Origin: a virus
IMG/VR virus record: IMGVR_UViG_3300038461_000101
Location: 24,724-88,723 of that record
Direction: 5' to 3' (one strand)
Length of the DNA: 64,000 bases
Within the stretch, counting starts at the first letter, position 1; every line of letters starts with the position of its first letter. Of this stretch, positions 3,018-14,611 are shown in pieces. The translations under genes were made by a program, and so were the position numbers. The notes below the pieces were generated by a model. That model had not been told where the DNA came from and made no database searches. It saw only the letters and a program-made list of their open reading frames with translations.

Positions 3018-3877
3018 TGGTTCAGACCGTAGCTATATTGAAGAGCTATAACATCTGGATGCACCAGGCCCCCCGGCTTCTGGAGAAATATGGCTATACT
3101 TTTCCTTCTCCAGTTGGGGTATGGGAGAAACTGACCGGTCCTCTTTGCCCTGAATGCAATGGGTATCCTACCATGGAAGATAGCAAAGGCAATTGGATTT
3201 ACTGTGTGTGTGCCTTATCCAGATGGCTGGATACCCATAAGAATGATTGCCAGCTTTTTGAAACTCCAGTTCCTGCAGTATCTCTTGATGATCTCAAGCC
3301 TTTCAGTAATCACAATAGCCCAAAGAAAGGTGAAGAAGATCTCCGGGTCTTGCTTTCCTTCGTGCGCAAATGGATGCAGAGACCTCGACGCTGGATGTGG
3401 ATTGAAGGTGGCACTGGTACTGGTAAAAGCCATGTTCTCATGGCAATCAAAACAGCCTTGCCCAAAATAGCTTTCTATATTGGGGCTGAAAGGTTTTCAT
3501 CTGAGTGCTTCCGAACAATGGAGCACAAGGTTCTTACCGAAGGTGGCGATGAAGTTACCCTGGACGATTTCATTACTCGATTATCCACGGTGCCTATTCT
3601 GTTGTTTGATGATTGGGGATTAGAGCATCGAACTTCCTTTGTGACTGACCAACTGGCAGCAGTGATCAACAATCGTGTCCGGTTCCCGGATGAGTTTGTG
3701 ACTATTGTTACTTCGAACATGCAGCTTGCCAAACTCCTACATTCTGGAGATCAAGCCATTGAACGGATTGCCAGCCGAATGAGCGACAGTCAGTATTGCG
3801 ATTTCTTTACTCTCTCCCAGGCAGATTATCGTCGCCCCACTACTTTCGCAGAAGGGAGTGGGTATGCTCAAAGATAG
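3017..3877 (+). CDS. DnaC/IstB-like AAA+ ATPase (helicase loader)
   Basis: N-terminal CPEC...CVC Zn site, Walker A GGTGTGKS, Walker B LLFDDWG, TIVTSN, RIASR. Confidence 0.88.
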   Translation: MVQTVAILKSYNIWMHQAPRLLEKYGYTFPSPVGVWEKLTGPLCPECNGYPTMEDSKGNWIYCVCALSRWLDTHKNDCQLFETPVPAVSLDDLKPFSNHNSPKKGEEDLRVLLSFVRKWMQRPRRWMWIEGGTGTGKSHVLMAIKTALPKIAFYIGAERFSSECFRTMEHKVLTEGGDEVTLDDFITRLSTVPILLFDDWGLEHRTSFVTDQLAAVINNRVRFPDEFVTIVTSNMQLAKLLHSGDQAIERIASRMSDSQYCDFFTLSQADYRRPTTFAEGSGYAQR

Positions 3878-9889: not shown

Positions 9890-10777
9890 GTGATGCCTAA
9901 AAAAGATGATAAGAACGAAGTGCTAGAAGGTCAGGTTGCTGATGTTCCGGGATCTGAACCACCGGAGCCCGAAGTTCCAACTGAAGCAAGTATCAAGCCA
10001 GACATGGTGAATGTAAAAAATAACGAGATCGTTCCCCATGGAGCAAATGATATTCCAATTCCCAAGGGTGCTACTCCTTTGGAGATGGTCAAGGTCGAAA
10101 CCATTGGCACCTTGAAGCTAAGTGCACATGCTGAAGAAGTGCTCAATCGTAAGATGGAGCCGGAAATAGTGTGCATCCGACCAAACGATGGCATTCTCTA
10201 TATGCCATGGACGTTCTATGCTTCCCGGCTAAACGAGGCTTTTGGTATTGGACATTGGGGCTTGATGCCACAGGGATCCCCTCAGATAACCAAGCAAAGT
10301 CCCAAGCAGGATCTTGTGGTTTGGGGATTTGCTCTCTTTGTCGAAGGAATCTTCATCAGCTTTGCCATTGGCGAGATGTCCTACAATACGACAAATGCTA
10401 AGATGTCCTATGCAGATGCTGCCGAAGGTGCCAAAAGTAATTCCCTGGCCCGTAACTGCAAGAACTTGGGTATGACACTTGAGTTATGGGATAAGGAATG
10501 GTGCGAAGAATGGAAAAGGAAATTCGCAAGGAAAAATGGTGATGATTGGGTCAGGCAGATACCCAAGAAGCCAGTCGATACTATAGCTACCGTGAAGGCA
10601 TTATGGATTGCCCAGGCCATTGATAAGGGTATCCTGATTGACCGCAAGGATGAAGGTGGCTTCAAGATCCTGACTACCTTATTGGGTGAGACCTACACCA
10701 AATTGAGTGATGAAAATCTGGCCGCCAATAAGAAGGCTGGCCTTGAGTTGATCGCCGGGTGGAAACCTTCGCTCTAG
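9890..10777 (+). CDS. Rad52/Mgm101-like single-strand annealing protein
   Basis: IRPNDGILYMPW..Y..RLNEAFGIGHWGLMP and AEGAKSN.L.R.CK.LG...ELWD match the Mgm101/Rad52-22 core. Confidence 0.8.
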   Translation: MMPKKDDKNEVLEGQVADVPGSEPPEPEVPTEASIKPDMVNVKNNEIVPHGANDIPIPKGATPLEMVKVETIGTLKLSAHAEEVLNRKMEPEIVCIRPNDGILYMPWTFYASRLNEAFGIGHWGLMPQGSPQITKQSPKQDLVVWGFALFVEGIFISFAIGEMSYNTTNAKMSYADAAEGAKSNSLARNCKNLGMTLELWDKEWCEEWKRKFARKNGDDWVRQIPKKPVDTIATVKALWIAQAIDKGILIDRKDEGGFKILTTLLGETYTKLSDENLAANKKAGLELIAGWKPSL

Positions 10778-10838: not shown

Positions 10839-11210
10839 ATGTTGGACCATGTATCTTTTGACGGTTTGGTTGTGGCCGGTTCTACCAGATGGTCGAAGCA
10901 CAAGACAAACTTCACCGTGTCTGGTGATTATGCCGCTTGTCCAGAGATTGAGTCTCAGTCCCTGGCACAGTACAAGCGTTCTGAAACTGCAGTGCATGTG
11001 ACAGTCTTTGTCTCTGAAAACGAGAAGATTGAATGTGACGCTTACATCGCTACAGTAGCCACTGACTGGATCCAGGACAAGACCAAGGTTACTTTCTCGG
11101 TCTCTGGTACCAAGAAGTTCGAAGGATCTGCCAGCGTCCTGGGCACCTGGGATGAGAAGGAAGTGCCAGTAACTGTTACGATCGAACCTCTTCAGAAGGC
11201 ATTGGTATGA
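10839..11210 (+). CDS. hypothetical protein
   Basis: GAGGAG RBS. Confidence 0.6.
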   Translation: MLDHVSFDGLVVAGSTRWSKHKTNFTVSGDYAACPEIESQSLAQYKRSETAVHVTVFVSENEKIECDAYIATVATDWIQDKTKVTFSVSGTKKFEGSASVLGTWDEKEVPVTVTIEPLQKALV

Positions 11211-11998
11211 GCTACGGTCTGATCTATGAGCCTCGGGGTGCCGCCCGGGAATATGCTCAGCTGGCCTGTAATGTCTACCATGGTTGCGAACATGGGTGCC
11301 GATATTGTTTCGGCCCCAATGTTCTGCGCCAGGAGAAAACCACATTCCACGAACAGGCTGGAGAACGTCCCAACTTCCTTGTGCAATTGAAGAAGGATGC
11401 TGCAAGGTTACGCGATCAAGGTGTGAAGGGTCAGGTGCATCTTTGCTTTACCACGGATCCTTACCAGCCAATGGATGTGAAGCTCGGAATTACTCGAAGC
11501 ACGATTGAAGTTCTCCATGCAAATGGTTTCAGTGTAGCCATCTTGACCAAGGGAGGTAGTAGATCCCTGAAGGACATTGATTTGTTTGGCCCCACTGATG
11601 CCATGGCAGCCACGATTACCTATGCTAGGGATGAGGACAGTCTGCGCGAAGAACCCAATGCTGCTCTCCCACAGGATCGTCTGGATGCTCTGAAGATATT
11701 CCATAATGCCCATGTTCCCACATGGATCTCCTGTGAACCAGTCCTGGACCCCAAGCAGACCTTGTATTGCATTGAACTGATGCACTATTGGGTGGACCAT
11801 GTGAAGGTTGGAAAACTCAACCATGATCCCAAGCGGGAAGCCACGATTGACTGGTACAAGTTTGCCAAGAATGCAGTGAAATTACTGGAACGCCTGGGCT
11901 ATAAGCGCATTCTGGATCCGGATGATGCAGTCAGGGCCACCAATGATAACCGAACTTTCTATGTGAAGTCCGGGCTTGTCAAATTTCTGGAGGCTTAG
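11207..11998 (+). CDS. radical SAM protein (SPL/Rv2578c-like)
   Basis: NVYHGCEHGCRYCF (CxxxCxxC), TDPYQP, ILTKG, EP.A....RL.AL, SCEP. Confidence 0.85.
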   Translation: MSYGLIYEPRGAAREYAQLACNVYHGCEHGCRYCFGPNVLRQEKTTFHEQAGERPNFLVQLKKDAARLRDQGVKGQVHLCFTTDPYQPMDVKLGITRSTIEVLHANGFSVAILTKGGSRSLKDIDLFGPTDAMAATITYARDEDSLREEPNAALPQDRLDALKIFHNAHVPTWISCEPVLDPKQTLYCIELMHYWVDHVKVGKLNHDPKREATIDWYKFAKNAVKLLERLGYKRILDPDDAVRATNDNRTFYVKSGLVKFLEA

Positions 11999-12229
11999 AT
12001 GGATACCGGTGATGGAAGATTTGCTCCTCTGCAAGTACCTGAAAGCGCAGACAAGCTCTTGGCCGAGCAACAACTTCGAATAGCTCAGGAAGCATTGGAG
12101 GCGCAGTTTACGGGTCACGGTGGATGGTTTCAGGTTGGCGAAATTGTTGTGATCAAAGATAGTCGGTTCCGGGTGAAGTCAATCAAACCAACCGAACTCC
12201 GATTGAAGTTGCTTCCGAAGGAGGGATGA
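11999..12229 (+). CDS. hypothetical protein
   Basis: GGAGG RBS. Confidence 0.6.
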   Translation: MDTGDGRFAPLQVPESADKLLAEQQLRIAQEALEAQFTGHGGWFQVGEIVVIKDSRFRVKSIKPTELRLKLLPKEG

Positions 12230-12630
12230 TGCCAATCAAACCGAAGGGTATTGTTACTCGAAGTAATGACCCCAAAGAAGGCTTTGCCAAGATAGGAGAG
12301 CCTCAGGTTCAGATCGTGGCCTGGTGTCCGGACAAATATGCCAAAGTTCCTCCCACTCAGGTTCACTTCATCATGCACTGGCCGGTCGAACTCTCTGACC
12401 TACCTCCGCTGGTCATTCGCTTCAAAGGCCCGGATACTCTTGGTTTCTTCATCGAAGAACTGATGAAGTATCGCCGGACTGTATGGCCTAATTGTGAAAA
12501 AGTGACCGGAGAGCAATCCCCGGCCTCACTTGAAATGGAACTGCCAGAAGTATGTAATTGCGGTAAACCTTATCCACATTCTGGCTATTGTCCATTCTGT
12601 GGAACCCATCGAAGGGAAGGTGCTGGATGA
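12226..12630 (+). CDS. hypothetical protein with C-terminal Zn ribbon
   Basis: CNCG...YCPFCG. Confidence 0.6.
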   Translation: MMPIKPKGIVTRSNDPKEGFAKIGEPQVQIVAWCPDKYAKVPPTQVHFIMHWPVELSDLPPLVIRFKGPDTLGFFIEELMKYRRTVWPNCEKVTGEQSPASLEMELPEVCNCGKPYPHSGYCPFCGTHRREGAG

Positions 12631-13001
12631 GTTTCTTTCATAAGCATTCCTGGAAACTTACCATCTATGTCTATTCCCGGGAAAAGCGTATGGTTCGGGA
12701 ATGTTATCACTGTCCTGTTGTGCAGTCAGAAGTAGTTGATCGACGTACCGGCCAACGCAGATGGATAGATGGTGATGTGTGGTCAAGGAATGATACGGTC
12801 TATATCGTCTGCGAAAATGAGCAGCAATACCATGCTGTAGCCAACCAGATTGGAATTTTCAATCACCAACGATGTGCTCGGTTGATCAGTACCGATATGC
12901 TCCGAGGAATGCGAGACCCCATCATTATCTTTGCAGGACAGTGGTGGGAGAATGAAATCATCCAGGATCCGTACTTCACGGCCATCCTGAATGGGTTATA
13001 A
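12627..13001 (+). CDS. hypothetical protein
   Basis: ATGA coupling. Confidence 0.55.
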   Translation: MSFFHKHSWKLTIYVYSREKRMVRECYHCPVVQSEVVDRRTGQRRWIDGDVWSRNDTVYIVCENEQQYHAVANQIGIFNHQRCARLISTDMLRGMRDPIIIFAGQWWENEIIQDPYFTAILNGL

Positions 13002-13036
13002 TGCAGCCAATCAGACAGAGAAAAGGAGAATAGAGT

Positions 13037-13372
13037 ATGAATATCAAGTTAGCAGAAGCGTTATTGCGGCGGAAAGAATTGCAAGCTAAGGTGGATCAGC
13101 TCCATACCATCCTCCCGGCACAGCTTTACGAACTGAAGGTTGCTCGGCGCAACATCAATGAGACCGTTGACGACATCACGGCCCAGGTGCCTCGCCTGAA
13201 TGCAGCCCAGGTCACTTCCGAGTATGACTTCTATGCTCGGCAGCTGCGCCTCGTGGATGCGGCCATCCAGCAAGCAAATTGGACGACCACCCTGGAAGTG
13301 GGCGAATCTGTCATGGCTGATTGGTCTGGCCCTGCAGCTGTGCAGGGTTCCACTCTTCCTTTGAAGAAATAG
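13037..13372 (+). CDS. DIP1984-family (DUF6847-like) protein, short form
   Basis: N-terminal KLAEAL..R..LQ..V.QL and C-terminal LR.VDAAIQQANWTT.L signatures; AAGGAG RBS. Confidence 0.75.
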   Translation: MNIKLAEALLRRKELQAKVDQLHTILPAQLYELKVARRNINETVDDITAQVPRLNAAQVTSEYDFYARQLRLVDAAIQQANWTTTLEVGESVMADWSGPAAVQGSTLPLKK

Positions 13373-13375
13373 AAT

Positions 13376-13694
13376 GTTTGGCGGGTCTCTGGTGATTGAG
13401 AGTGCGTTGGGTAAAGGCCGCTCGGAGCCTAAATCCGTAGGGAATGGCCGTTCCCATAGCGAACTGAAGCAGAACAGTAAACCTGCGCCTCCAATGCTAA
13501 TGGAGCATTCGAAATGTCCACCACGTTGGGCACTTTGAACCGGGCACCGGTTGCCTTGAAGCCGGGTAACTCCGATTATCCTAACCACTACTCTTTCATA
13601 TCCGATTGGCCGACTGTGATTATCTGAGAACTCCGACTGTGATCCAGCCCGACTAACCAAGCCCAGGCTCTCTTTCACCAGAGACCCGCCAAAC
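13376..13694 (+). ncRNA. putative structured ncRNA (~320 nt) of unknown family
   Basis: Perfect 20-bp inverted repeat GTTTGGCGGGTCTCTGGTGA (13376-13395) / TCACCAGAGACCCGCCAAAC (13675-13694), internal hairpins, five CCGAYT repeats, followed by a terminator. Confidence 0.65.
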
Positions 13695-13706
13695 CCATAT
13701 AATCAA

Positions 13707-13740
13707 AACCGCCTCCAGCAATGGAGGCGGTTCTTATTTT
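13707..13740. terminator. intrinsic terminator between convergent operons (likely bidirectional)
   Basis: AACCGCCTCCA-GCAA-TGGAGGCGGTT hairpin with a T-rich tail on + and an A-run upstream. Confidence 0.8.
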
Positions 13741-13759
13741 AGTGCTAGATCAAAATTAT

Positions 13760-14176
13760 CTAATGAATACCCTTGGGGCCGGTTGCACCAGTTGGACCCT
13801 GAGGATAGATCTTGGAATGATATTTGGTAAGCACTTGCATATTGCGCTTCAAGACTGCCACTTGGACATCAACAGGTTGTGGCAGGATCATGAAGACTGG
13901 CTGGTTCACGATAATGAACATGAGCATGGTGGCAACGTAGGTAGACCATGTTACCGGCTGAGTGGCCGTGATCACACCAAGTTGGATCAGCAAGGTGATC
14001 ACAGCTCCGGTCGCCAGAGTCACGCCGAGCATAATTAGGCTCTTATAGCCAGCCAGGAGCCCTGCATACCAGACCCGGAAGACCGGGATCCAGGCAAAGG
14101 TGGCTGCCAGCACCAGGCCAGCGATCGCTGCAATACCAACGGGGGTAAAACTTACGGGCGGAATTACGATATTCAT
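13760..14176 (-). CDS. holin-like membrane protein
   Basis: 2-3 TM segments, last gene of the lysis cassette, AAGGAG RBS. Confidence 0.6.
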   Translation of the reverse strand: MNIVIPPVSFTPVGIAAIAGLVLAATFAWIPVFRVWYAGLLAGYKSLIMLGVTLATGAVITLLIQLGVITATQPVTWSTYVATMLMFIIVNQPVFMILPQPVDVQVAVLKRNMQVLTKYHSKIYPQGPTGATGPKGIH

Positions 14177-14230
14177 TTTGCTCTCCTTTACTATATCCGG
14201 CCATGGCCGGTTGACAAACCGTTTACACAA

Positions 14231-14611
14231 TCATACCCCTTTTAGCAGAACGTGAATGACCAATAGGACAAACGAGATGGAGCTGATGACAAAGCCCCCA
14301 ACGGCCAATCCAGTTGCCAGGTTGACAGACTTCGTTGATGCTTTTGTGTCTAACGTCAACTTGAAGTCTTGTAGGGAACGTATCTCTAGCTCAATTTGTT
14401 TTTGATATAACTCATGTGACTCCTTGGTGAAATAGGTAGCACGCTGATCGCGCAGGGCTTCCCGCAATTCATTCATGCCATCAAGCCGCTTGTCCATTGC
14501 TGCAAGTGCGAGTCTACGAGCTTCTTCCATGGAGTCTATTCGTGTTTTGAATAATTCCTCCACCTTGGAGATCCATAAGGTAAAGAACTTCTCCAATGCA
14601 AGCAAAGTCAT
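14231..14611 (-). CDS. coiled-coil protein with C-terminal TM (lysis-associated)
   Basis: GGAGG RBS before MTLLALE; C-terminal hydrophobic helix. Confidence 0.55.
   Translation of the reverse strand: MTLLALEKFFTLWISKVEELFKTRIDSMEEARRLALAAMDKRLDGMNELREALRDQRATYFTKESHELYQKQIELEIRSLQDFKLTLDTKASTKSVNLATGLAVGGFVISSISFVLLVIHVLLKGV

What the first reader, a model, noticed from the sequence alone, without database searches (positions are those of the whole stretch)
13037..13740. DIP1984-like gene coupled to a ~320-nt structured RNA with internal repeats: candidate undescribed protein-ncRNA system
Seen: 3 nt after the stop codon of a short (111-aa) DIP1984-like gene, a non-coding element begins. It is closed by a perfect 20-bp inverted repeat (13376-13395 / 13675-13694) that extends inward through GAGAG/CTCTC and TGGGT/GCCCA. 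Its 5' half holds several small hairpins. Its 3' half is weakly paired and carries five CCGA(C/T)T copies (13572, 13602, 13610, 13633, 13649), including an exact 11-mer CCGACTGTGAT twice, plus AACTCCGA, GATTATC and CTAACCA twice each. A separate terminator follows at 13707, so the long helix is not the terminator. I see no tmRNA, RNase P or SRP hallmark motifs. Known: DIP1984-family proteins are helical proteins of unknown function. Inference: the element is an RNA, possibly excised at the long stem, presenting repeated binding sites for an oligomer of the adjacent protein (scaffold, sponge, or antitoxin-like as in type III toxin-antitoxin systems).
Basis: partly seen in the sequence, partly recalled or inferred. 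Interest (0 to 1): 0.88.

Follow-up and report, generated by a model that had tools for sequence, protein, structure and literature searches.

The report
Phage repeat-array RNA with partner protein
Directly behind a small gene of unknown function, this peat phage encodes a real, knotted, roughly 320-base non-coding RNA that ends in a row of eleven short repeats; gene and RNA travel together in phages of very different bacteria, so they are probably two halves of an undescribed protein-RNA particle.

Summary
The element (13376-13694, + strand) belongs to a conserved structured RNA family that matches no Rfam 15 family.

- **Linkage to the gene:** its 3' domain lies on the gene's strand next to a DUF6847/DIP1984-like gene in 66 of 71 loci. 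These are 59 IMG/VR loci, 9 bacterial-genome loci, 2 cultured Vibrio phages and the window.
- **Reverse test:** a scan of IMG/VR with an RNA-only pattern gave 30 stretches, 21 of them with the gene beside the match.
- **Architecture:** a long closing helix that keeps pairing while its sequence changes, and is stronger on the + strand; an H-type pseudoknot; a hairpin whose loop is nearly always a 4-base palindrome; and a variable centre.
- **Variable centre:** in relatives it holds a tRNA gene, or a back-to-front tRNA look-alike. The window copy has neither.
- **3' array:** unpaired, eleven units of 7-8 bases with a GA core.
- **Expression hint:** contigs from two peat RNA libraries of two studies cover the inside of the element.

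Function is unknown. I found no paper on this pair; VIPR is the nearest analogue, not a relative. Earlier notes of this scan report similar DUF6847-RNA pairs on other DNA.

The parts
12975..13002 (+). Promoter-like site (TTCACG, 16 nt, TATAAT) in front of the gene. A possible start of a transcript that carries both gene and RNA.
   Evidence: Consensus scan, 10 of 12 matches. This is a consensus match only, not shown to be active.
13037..13372 (+). DUF6847/DIP1984-like gene, 111 aa. N-terminal KLAEALLRRKEL motif and C-terminal QLRLVDAAIQQANW motif.
   Evidence: Pfam PF20935, E 1.5e-7, 31.9 bits (cut-off 27). NCBIfam DIP1984_fam 36.6 bits, below its cut-off of 70. A profile of 29 homologues hits PDB 3kdq_A at E 8e-4. 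Sixteen residues are invariant across those 29 homologues.
13376..13412 (+). 5' strand of the closing helix: P1a 13376-13395, P1b 13398-13403, conserved GCG bulge 13404-13406, P2 13407-13412.
   Evidence: The duplex has 32 pairs, 3 of them G.U on the + strand. In relatives the helix pairs best with its own partner in 27 of 49 loci.
13415..13437 (+). H-type pseudoknot. S1 is 13415-13418 with 13427-13430. S2 is 13423-13426 with 13434-13437.
   Evidence: S2: 4 of 4 pairs change on both sides and 100% of cells are paired in 20 sequences; 151 of 152 cells are paired in 38 sequences. S1: 37-38 of 38 cells paired at each pair, two pairs with compensating changes.
13440..13455 (+). Hairpin H3. Stem 13440-13445 with 13450-13455; loop GGCC at 13446-13449, a 4-nt palindrome.
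   Evidence: 5 of 5 pairs change on both sides, 99% paired. A 4-nt palindrome sits at the loop in 21 of 22 distinct parsed hairpins, in 8 tallied palindrome types (CGCG only as an overlap of GCGC).
13461..13565 (+). Variable centre. Hairpin 13469-13472 / 13483-13486; anticodon-arm-like hairpin 13489-13493 / 13501-13505 with a 7-nt loop; long hairpin 13508-13539; hairpin 13540-13543 / 13562-13565. This copy holds no tRNA and no tRNA-like domain.
   Evidence: single-sequence folds compared by eye across relatives. Classes of the centre in 35 distinct relatives are given. ARAGORN finds no tRNA here.
13566..13659 (+). 3' domain: eleven units of 7-8 nt with a GA core. The strong CCGAYT units are at 13572, 13602, 13610, 13633 and 13649. 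It ends in an invariant ACCA at 13656-13659.
   Evidence: HMM hit in 66 of 71 loci, all on the + strand. Autocorrelation peaks at lags 8, 15, 22-23 and 30-31 (z 7-10). RNAalifold finds no consensus pairing in 46 sequences.
13661..13694 (+). 3' strand of the closing helix: P2 13661-13666, P1b 13667-13672, P1a 13675-13694.
13707..13740 (+). Intrinsic-terminator-like hairpin (11 pairs, 7 of them G-C) followed by a T-run.

Best explanation
The window holds a two-part phage module: a small DUF6847 protein gene and, directly behind it, a stable structured non-coding RNA of about 320 nt made from the same strand.

**How the RNA is built.** Its two ends are clamped by a helix of about 32 bp (P1 and P2, with a conserved GCG bulge). 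Inside, a pseudoknot and a hairpin with a self-complementary loop form a folded 5' core. A variable centre can hold a tRNA or a tRNA mimic. The 3' third is an unpaired row of eleven 7-8-nt units with a (CC)GA core.

**How it most likely works.**
- Several copies of the DUF6847 protein bind along this row, one per unit or one dimer per 15 nt.
- The folded core and the end clamp protect the RNA and set the register.
- The palindromic loop lets two RNAs pair.
- The long helix is a likely RNase III cutting site that frees the RNA from the gene's transcript.

**Shown:** the RNA family, its structure, its strand, the periodic array, and the linkage between gene and RNA.

**Inferred:** protein binding, stoichiometry, dimerisation, processing, and any role in infection.
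For: **Gene-RNA linkage.**
- The 3' domain lies on the gene's strand in 66 of 71 loci. Usually it follows the gene directly. In L034 and L070 it comes before the gene.
- A scan of IMG/VR with an RNA-only pattern gave 30 stretches. In 21 the gene is within 1.5 kb on the same strand. In 4 the match lies at the edge of the held DNA on the gene side. The other 5 have weak or no HMM score.
- No other protein neighbour is conserved: the gene is in 69 of 69 loci that have an ORF table, and the next cluster that is not an antisense overlap of the gene is in 16.
- Gene and RNA are each single-copy in the 88.7-kb genome.

**Structure.**
- The pseudoknot and H3 covary: 95% of cells are paired against 67% in shuffles, and 0 of 500 shuffles reach the observed covariation score. 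In the correct register, S2 has 151 of 152 cells paired and S1 37-38 of 38 at each pair.
- The closing helix has a different sequence in each relative, yet its own partner is the best of 49 candidates in 27 of 49 loci.
- The + strand helix is more stable than the - strand helix in 18 of 22 loci (Wilcoxon p 6e-4). G.U pairs number 76 of 641 on the + strand against 37 of 604 on the - strand.

**Array.**
- It has a period of 7-8 nt and conserved sequence, with no conserved pairing.
- It accepts small hairpin insertions between units in L054, L029 and L013.

**Protein.** Invariant residues include R12, K13, R37, R71, Q78, Q79, N81 and W82. I read these as typical of RNA-binding surfaces; that is inference. 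L063 carries two copies of the domain in one chain.

**RNA libraries.** Contigs 100% identical to 13416-13637 occur in two peat metatranscriptome runs from two studies.
Against: - No binding, fold or oligomer test could be run.
- The contigs come from RNA libraries that may contain DNA. They show no strand and no ends.
- Five of 71 loci with the gene show no 3' domain at E 1e-3: L050, L059, L061, L062 and L066. L066 was found at E 4e-4 in a smaller search.
- The 5' domain HMM finds only 42 of 71 loci.
- The closing helix is the best partner in 27 of 49 loci, not in all. Some relatives have short, A+U-rich helices.
- Computed pairing probability does not separate the array from the rest: 0.51 against 0.60.
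- The palindromic loop could reflect a constraint at the DNA level.
- The conserved array could bind a host factor rather than the neighbouring protein.
Confidence: 0.6

Rival explanations
1. The RNA works alone, as a decoy or sponge for a host factor. Candidates are a tRNA-recognising enzyme, an anticodon nuclease or a global RNA-binding protein. On this view the DUF6847 gene is only a co-expressed neighbour or a chaperone.
For: - Of 35 distinct relatives, 8 carry a tRNA and 9 a back-to-front tRNA look-alike in the centre.
- Three of the look-alikes give full-length but sub-threshold YrlA matches of 29.7-36.3 bits.
- The array sequence is conserved in MAGs assigned to very different phyla, an isolate genome and cultured phages. 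That would fit a conserved host ligand.
Against: - The window copy and 10 other distinct relatives have no tRNA-like motif at all, so mimicry cannot be the core function.
- The only universal neighbour is the DUF6847 gene.
- The pair stays together even when the order is swapped (L034, L070).
Confidence: 0.2
2. This is an RNA-guided system of the VIPR kind built from unrelated parts. Protein copies line up on the array and expose the variable bases of each unit, or the variable centre, to read a nucleic-acid target in a competing element or in the host.
For: - The layout is analogous to VIPR: a phage gene, plus an RNA with short units that have a fixed core and variable positions, plus a pseudoknotted part (VIPR preprint Results; this RNA).
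- The window's centre (13483-13498) is an exact 16-nt complement of 12091-12106, inside ORF 11999-12229.
Against: - The array is alignable across relatives whose proteins are about 50% identical or less, so it is not hypervariable in the way VIPR's NN positions are.
- In the closest pair (L010 and L013, genes 96% identical) the arrays differ mainly by one insertion.
- The centres of the other 34 relatives show only chance-level complementarity within their own loci.
- No target rule was found or tested.
Confidence: 0.1
3. It is a cis-acting 3' untranslated element of the DUF6847 mRNA, acting as a stabiliser, a processing site or a translational control element. It is not an RNA with a job of its own.
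For: It starts 3 nt after the stop codon. It shares a putative promoter and a terminator with the gene.
Against: - In L034 and L070 it lies upstream of the gene.
- In L023, L025, L032 and L041 it lies hundreds of bases downstream of the gene.
- A 320-nt pseudoknotted RNA with an 11-unit array and a tRNA slot is far more than a stabiliser needs.
- The contigs in RNA libraries cover the inside of the element.
Confidence: 0.07
4. It is a DNA-level element: an invertible segment, a MITE, or an origin of replication with iterons, flanked by inverted repeats.
For: There is a perfect 20-bp inverted repeat around about 280 bp, short direct repeats inside, and a position at the junction of converging gene blocks.
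Against: - It is single-copy in the genome.
- All 66 homologous 3' domains face the same way relative to the gene.
- The helices contain G.U pairs and are stronger on the + strand.
- The inner helices and a pseudoknot covary.
- No joints or strand changes were seen in the laid contigs.
Confidence: 0.03

Closest known systems
VIPR systems (Vipr protein plus vrRNA). bioRxiv 10.64898/2026.04.26.720920: I read the abstract, the first part of Results and some passages.
   Same: Mostly encoded by phages and proviruses. A small gene sits next to a non-coding RNA made of short tandem units with a fixed core and variable positions, joined to a conserved part with a pseudoknot. In VIPR the protein and RNA co-purify.
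   Different: - Vipr is a RAMP (RRM) protein; this one matches Pfam DUF6847. Its fold was not tested here.
- vrRNAs are about 100 nt with 9-16 units of 5 nt (GGY/NN) and often occur as several copies per locus. This RNA is about 320 nt, single, closed by a long helix, and has eleven 7-8-nt units with a (CC)GA core.
- Here the array is conserved, not hypervariable.
- No accessory gene is conserved.
- None of the three VIPR preprints listed contains the word DUF6847.
YrlA / bacterial Y RNAs with Ro60 (Rfam RF02553). Chen et al. 2014, PMC4201824: passages read.
   Same: The 5' and 3' ends pair into a stem. Nine of 35 distinct relatives hold a tRNA-like module in the YrlA order: T arm, then a capped acceptor stem, then the D arm. 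L014, L009 and L027 give full-length YrlA matches.
   Different: - Those matches score 29.7-36.3 bits against a gathering score of 69.
- The window copy has no such module and no YrlA match at E up to 10.
- The phage genome has no TROVE/Ro60 gene.
- YrlA has no pseudoknot domain and no repeat array.
GOLLD (RF01998) and ROOL (RF03087), large ornate RNAs of phages and prophages. Their features here are recalled, not read.
   Same: Ornate, pseudoknotted RNAs carried by phages, of unknown function. As I recall, they often lie beside or around tRNA genes and assemble into multimers. The palindromic loop found here hints at self-pairing.
   Different: - No Rfam match.
- About 320 nt rather than about 600-800 nt.
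- A dedicated protein-gene partner.
- A periodic unpaired array.
RAGATH-27 RNA motif (Rfam RF03100). Named in earlier notes of this scan as covering the first 86 nt of DUF6847-linked RNAs in other phages.
   Same: According to those notes only: a 5' domain of RNAs that follow DUF6847-like genes.
   Different: - No RAGATH-27 match in the window region at E up to 10.
- None in 11 relatives at E up to 1.
- None in 20 relatives at the gathering score.
- Phage T5 (AY543070) gave no RF03100 and no PF20935 match. In the RF03100 search the control genomes also gave nothing.
Type III toxin-antitoxin systems (ToxIN type), and proteins that bind repeated RNA motifs such as TRAP and CsrA-CsrB. Features recalled, not read.
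   Same: A protein gene beside an RNA with repeated short motifs. As I recall, TRAP binds 11 triplet repeats with an 11-subunit ring; eleven units are counted here.
   Different: - ToxI repeats are about 36 nt, precede the toxin gene and are cut by it. Here units are 7-8 nt and follow the gene in most loci.
- The only Pfam match of the protein is DUF6847.
- TRAP and CsrA are unrelated proteins with 5-nt or GGA motifs.

Membership tests
Pfam DUF6847 (PF20935) / DIP1984 family (the protein) | Score above the family's curated cut-off. | tested here: met
   PF20935: 31.9 bits against a cut-off of 27, covering profile positions 66-141 of 141. The ESM Atlas nearest clusters are named DUF6847 and are mostly viral.
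NCBIfam DIP1984_fam (NF038048) | Score above the curated cut-off of 70 bits. | tested here: not met
   36.6 bits, C-terminal 37 residues only. The profile of 29 homologues hits the 154-aa chain 3kdq_A at E 8e-4 through both the N- and C-terminal motifs. I read this as a shorter relative, not a member of that subfamily.
RAGATH-27 (RF03100) | Covariance-model match at or near the gathering score of 76.1 bits. | tested here: not met
   No match at E up to 10 in window 12900-14000. None at E up to 1 in 11 relatives. None at the gathering score in 20 relatives.
YrlA / Y RNA (RF02553) | Covariance-model match at the gathering score of 69 bits. | tested here: not met
   The window has no match. Three relatives score 29.7-36.3 bits over the tRNA-like centre only.
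YrlA / Y RNA (RF02553) | A Ro60 (TROVE) gene nearby. | tested here: not met
   PF05731 has no match in the 88.7-kb genome. The control genomes did respond.
VIPR | A RAMP-fold Vipr protein. | not testable with these tools
By sequence the protein is DUF6847 and its best PDB match is 3kdq_A, titled 'uncharacterized conserved protein'.
VIPR | A vrRNA with at least 4 tandem YNNGG units of 5 nt. | tested here: not met
   The period here is 7-8 nt: lag 5 is depleted (z -6.4) and lag 8 is enriched (z 9.9). The core is (CC)GA, not GGY.
Type III toxin-antitoxin (ToxIN type) | Tandem antitoxin RNA repeats of about 36 nt upstream of an endoribonuclease toxin gene (features recalled). | tested here: not met
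   Units are 7-8 nt. The RNA is downstream of the gene in most loci. The protein's only Pfam match is DUF6847. The PADLOC library was not searched.
tmRNA / RNase P / SRP RNA / 6S RNA | An Rfam or ARAGORN match. | tested here: not met
MITE or other repeated mobile element | Several copies in the genome. | tested here: not met
   One copy by BLAST and by HMM in the whole 88.7-kb genome. The exact arm has no other match in IMG/VR.
Invertible DNA segment | Both orientations occur relative to the flanking genes. | tested here: not met
   All 66 homologous 3' domains lie on the gene's strand. No strand-changing joints appear in the laid contigs.

The most novel reading that the evidence does not exclude
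DUF6847 proteins and their array RNAs are a widespread RNA-scaffolded or RNA-guided machine of phages, evolved independently of RAMP/VIPR and CRISPR. Protein copies polymerise on the eleven 7-8-nt units. Two RNAs join through the palindromic loop. The exchangeable centre gives each phage its specificity towards host tRNA machinery or towards competing genetic elements; that centre can be a tRNA, a tRNA mimic or, as here, a stretch complementary to one of the phage's own genes.
Probability: 0.12. Interest if true: 0.95.

Novelty: categorically new. Interest (0 to 1): 0.8.

Why it matters
Few phage RNAs with a dedicated protein partner are understood, and recent examples (VIPR) turned out to be new ways of reading nucleic acids. 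Here a protein family known only as a domain of unknown function gains a constant partner: an intricately folded RNA.

The pair is found in uncultured phages, in two cultured Vibrio phages, and in bacterial genome assemblies assigned to Legionella, Acidobacteriota, Planctomycetota, Latescibacterota and Desulfosporosinus. That breadth, the strict linkage and the modular tRNA slot point to a general phage function that nobody has described.

The cultured Vibrio phages make it directly testable.

Tried and rejected
- **Known RNA families.** Rfam at the gathering score on the whole window, at E up to 10 on 12900-14000, at the gathering score on 20 relatives and at E up to 1 on 11 relatives. Nothing covered the element except tRNA, and sub-threshold YrlA or tmRNA hits on the centres of relatives.
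- **MITE.** Single copy. The exact 20-mer arm is absent from IMG/VR. blastn of 13000-13760 against 50,697 phage records found nothing.
- **Ro60.** Absent from the genome.
- **Link to phage T5 claimed in earlier notes.** T5 (AY543070) has no RF03100 and no PF20935 match. I did not pursue other T5 relatives.
- **Full-length alignments.** MAFFT gave 419 columns (A1), and A2 misplaced the closing helix and the GCG bulge. I therefore built no covariance model and searched no genomes with an RNA model. The closing helix was tested instead by own-partner against other-partner duplex energies.
- **Pseudoknot stem S1 in A3.** MAFFT shifted it by one column in about half the rows, which gave a false 85% paired. 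A regular-expression parse also failed. The nhmmer alignment gave the correct register.
- **Hypervariability of the array among close relatives.** Only 5 pairs had genes 80% identical or more, too few to decide.
- **Pairing probabilities.** 0.51 for the array against 0.60 for the 5' domain. Not discriminating.
- **Complementarity of the centres of relatives to their own loci.** Only 12-13-nt matches at E 0.009-0.05 across 35 tests, which is chance level. The window is the exception.
- **Literature.** Searches for DUF6847, DIP1984, RAGATH-27 and PF20935, for vrRNA and Vipr, and for a tandem-repeat RNA, phage and ribonucleoprotein word set found no paper on this pair. A language-model preprint (10.64898/2026.10.21.760802; passages read) describes arrays of period 7 and 8. 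Those are followed by their own reverse complement and have no protein partner, so they are a different thing.
- **Laid RNA-library contigs.** The parts of 12400-14400 outside 13416-13637 had no cover in runs X1 and X2, and runs X3 and X4 laid nothing.
Full report
**Setting.** The window is bases 24724-88723 of an 88,723-bp IMG/VR virus record that CheckV rates 100% complete. RNA libraries that hold parts of the element come from peat. The element sits at the end of a + strand block of early-type genes: an Mgm101-like annealing protein, a radical SAM protein and small ORFs. The - strand lysis and tail genes converge on it from the other side.

**Observation.**
- The gene 13037-13372 encodes 111 aa and passes the Pfam DUF6847 cut-off.
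- Three bases after its stop, a perfect 20-bp inverted repeat (13376-13395 / 13675-13694) opens a helix that runs on through two more 6-bp segments.
- The five CCGAYT copies, the duplicated 11-mer and the other duplicated words are at the stated places.
- A separate terminator-like hairpin follows at 13707-13732.
- A promoter-like site at 12975-13002 would make promoter, gene, RNA and terminator one compact unit. That is a consensus match only.

**The element is conserved and tied to the gene.**
- A protein-based scan of IMG/VR gave 59 loci with a homologous gene.
- nhmmer with the window's element hit 33 of them, all on the gene's strand.
- An iterated HMM of the 3' domain (96 positions) hit 55 of the 59.
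- It also hit 9 of 9 loci from bacterial genome assemblies. Those are titled Legionella maceachernii ATCC 35300, Acidoferrales, Latescibacterota, Planctomycetota, Desulfosporosinus, Fluviicoccus, Hyphomicrobiaceae and Sansalvadorimonas (two loci).
- It hit 2 of 2 cultured Vibrio phages of the Zobellviridae that I examined, out of 13 phage records with the gene. There it falls in an unannotated gap after the gene.
- In one joint search at E 1e-3 the count is 66 of 71 loci, all on the + strand. The misses are L050, L059, L061, L062 and L066.
- The RNA usually follows the gene directly. In L034 and L070 it precedes the gene, and in a few loci it lies several hundred bases further downstream.
- No other protein-coding neighbour is conserved.

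**Reverse test.** An RNA-only pattern of three array units found 30 stretches in IMG/VR.
- 21 have the gene within 1.5 kb on the same strand.
- 4 lie at the edge of the held DNA on the gene side.
- 5 lack the gene. These score 20.6 bits or less, or nothing, with the array HMM, against 43-69 bits for the 9 gene-linked or edge stretches I re-scored. They are probably chance matches of the pattern.

Gene and RNA are each single-copy in the window's genome.

**It is a folded RNA read from the + strand.**
- *Closing helix.* Its sequence differs from relative to relative but stays paired. When the 3' flank of each of 49 distinct loci was offered the upstream regions of all 49, its own was the best partner in 27. 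The mean was -38.7 kcal/mol for own partners against -25.8 for others.
- *Strand.* The helix is stronger on the + strand in 18 of 22 loci (p 6e-4). It holds 76 G.U pairs of 641 on the + strand against 37 of 604 on the other. The window's own helix has three G.U pairs. This argues against a purely DNA-level inverted repeat.
- *5' core.* After a nearly invariant GCG bulge and helix P2 comes an H-type pseudoknot.
  - Stem S2 (window 13423-13426 / 13434-13437) is paired in 100% of cells, with changes on both sides at all four pairs. Hairpin H3 shows changes on both sides at all five pairs. None of 500 shuffles reaches the covariation score, and sliding the partners by 1-3 columns drops pairing to 34-54%.
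  - In the nhmmer register, with 38 distinct sequences, S1 is paired in 37-38 of 38 cells at each of its four pairs. Two pairs are invariant G-C and two carry compensating changes. S2 is paired in 151 of 152 cells.

**A palindromic loop.** The loop of H3 (GGCC in the window, 13446-13449) contains a 4-nt palindrome in 21 of 22 distinct hairpins that my script could parse. The palindromes tallied are GGCC, CCGG, GCGC (with CGCG as an overlap of it), ACGT, TCGA, TGCA and GTAC. By eye, most of the 13 rows the script could not parse also carry one (GGCC, GCGC, AGCT), with L058 an exception. A loop that changes sequence but stays self-complementary is what a loop-loop or extended-duplex dimer of two RNAs would need. 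I know that principle from retroviral dimerisation hairpins (recalled). This is an inference from sequence only.

**The centre is a slot.** Between the 5' core and the array the length runs from 53 to 207 nt. Among 35 distinct relatives with both anchors:
- 8 hold a tRNA that ARAGORN calls, with varied anticodons.
- 9 hold a T loop upstream of a D arm. In the three I read closely (L027, L009, L014) the acceptor stem is capped by a loop. That is the order described for YrlA, and these three give full-length YrlA matches below threshold.
- 7 have partial motifs.
- 11 have none. The window belongs to this last class. It keeps only an anticodon-arm-like hairpin (13489-13505) and plain hairpins.

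So tRNA mimicry is an optional module of the family, not its core.

**The 3' third is a periodic, unpaired array.**
- Autocorrelation over 41 distinct arrays peaks at lags 8 (z 9.9), 15 (9.8), 22-23 and 30-31.
- Per-position conservation resolves eleven units with an invariant or near-invariant A every 7-8 nt. The array ends in an invariant ACCA just before P2.
- RNAalifold finds no consensus pairing in 46 sequences, and no column pair shows real compensation.
- Three relatives carry small hairpins inserted between units.
- In the Vibrio phages the super-period of about 15 nt is plain to the eye.

**The protein.**
- Sixteen positions are invariant in 29 homologues. They cluster in an N-terminal LAEALLRRKEL motif and a C-terminal LRLVDAAIQQANW motif.
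- A profile of the family reaches PDB 3kdq_A at E 8e-4 through both motifs. That entry is a 154-aa 'uncharacterized conserved protein' with four identical chains on record. From memory I take it to be the DIP1984 structure.
- One distant relative (L063) has two copies of the domain in one chain.

**Expression.** Two peat metatranscriptome runs from two studies each hold 23% of the sampled words of 13037-13740. Their contigs, 100% identical, cover 13416-13637. One contig carries adapter sequence at both ends of a 106-nt insert spanning 13416-13521. Such libraries can contain DNA, and contigs show neither strand nor ends, so this is a hint and not proof of a transcript.

**Mechanism.**
- *Shown:* a conserved, + strand, pseudoknotted RNA with clamped ends and an unpaired 11-unit array, strictly linked to a DUF6847 gene.
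- *Inferred, about 0.6:* the protein binds the array in multiple copies. Three things point this way. The array is conserved in sequence but not in pairing. The protein is the RNA's only constant neighbour, even when the order is swapped. The protein's invariant residues are basic, amide and aromatic.
- *Further inferences:* the helix of about 32 bp is an RNase III site that releases the RNA, and the palindromic loop pairs two RNAs.
- *Role in infection:* unknown.

Rivals are an RNA that acts alone on a host factor (0.2), a VIPR-like guide system (0.1), a cis-acting 3' element (0.07) and a DNA-level element (0.03).

**Comparison with what is known.**
- No Rfam family matches. RAGATH-27, named in earlier notes of this scan for DUF6847-linked RNAs in other phages, does not match this window or the relatives I scanned.
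- T5 itself shows neither RAGATH-27 nor DUF6847 by the tools used.
- VIPR is the nearest described logic but fails the membership tests I could run: the period is 7-8 nt, not 5, and the core is not GGY.
- YrlA fails on score and on the absence of Ro60.

**Literature.** Full-text searches for DUF6847, DIP1984, RAGATH-27 and PF20935 returned one unrelated paper. The other searches found nothing on this pair. Supplements were closed, so accessory-gene tables of the VIPR preprint and cluster tables of the language-model preprint could hold something I did not see.

**Earlier notes of this scan.** One search lists at least seven findings of DUF6847-like genes followed by structured repeat RNAs on other genomes. 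I used them as leads for VIPR, RAGATH-27 and the short period, not as support.

**Verdict.** This is an undescribed RNA family with an undescribed protein partner. It is widespread in phages and prophages and testable in cultured Vibrio phages.

Noticed in passing
window 13483-13498 and 12091-12106: The centre of the RNA holds an exact 16-nt complement (31 of 37 over the longer stretch) of a site inside the 76-aa ORF 11999-12229, on the same strand. BLAST E is 5.6e-4 against the genome and 1.2e-4 against the 6.3-kb neighbourhood. None of 34 relatives shows more than a chance-level match within its own locus.
   Followed up: partly
L063:2086-2355 and L063:3001-3687: A distant relative from a 170-kb contig has a DUF6847 protein with two tandem copies of the domain (229 aa). 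About 650 nt upstream of that gene it has a group I intron match just under threshold (46.2 bits against 50).
   Followed up: no
L005:4892-4958: An int-alpA RNA (RF02996, 51.6 bits, above its gathering score of 35.8) lies about 1.2 kb downstream of the element in one relative.
   Followed up: no
L026:3613-3687; L011:3418-3492 and 3655-3729; L017:2900-2975: In several relatives further tRNA genes lie directly beside the element, so there the pair sits inside the phage's tRNA gene cluster. The window's genome has a single tRNA, about 46 kb away.
   Followed up: partly
window 13566-13659 (array units): The strong unit consensus YCCGA(A/U/C)U resembles the tRNA T-loop consensus UUCGA(A/U)U. The T-loop consensus is recalled, not taken from a call. 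No test of meaning was made.
   Followed up: no
L054, L029 and L013 (3' domain): Small G+C-rich hairpins of 14-24 nt are inserted between array units without disturbing the units on either side.
   Followed up: no
window 9890-10777 and 11207-11998: An Mgm101-family single-strand annealing protein (Pfam E 5e-33) and a radical SAM protein (E 1.3e-8) lie upstream in the same + strand gene block.
   Followed up: no
window 13768-13807 (- strand): A weak c-di-GMP-II riboswitch-like hit (18.3 bits against a gathering score of 53.5, E 0.86) lies just beyond the terminator. It is most likely chance.
   Followed up: no
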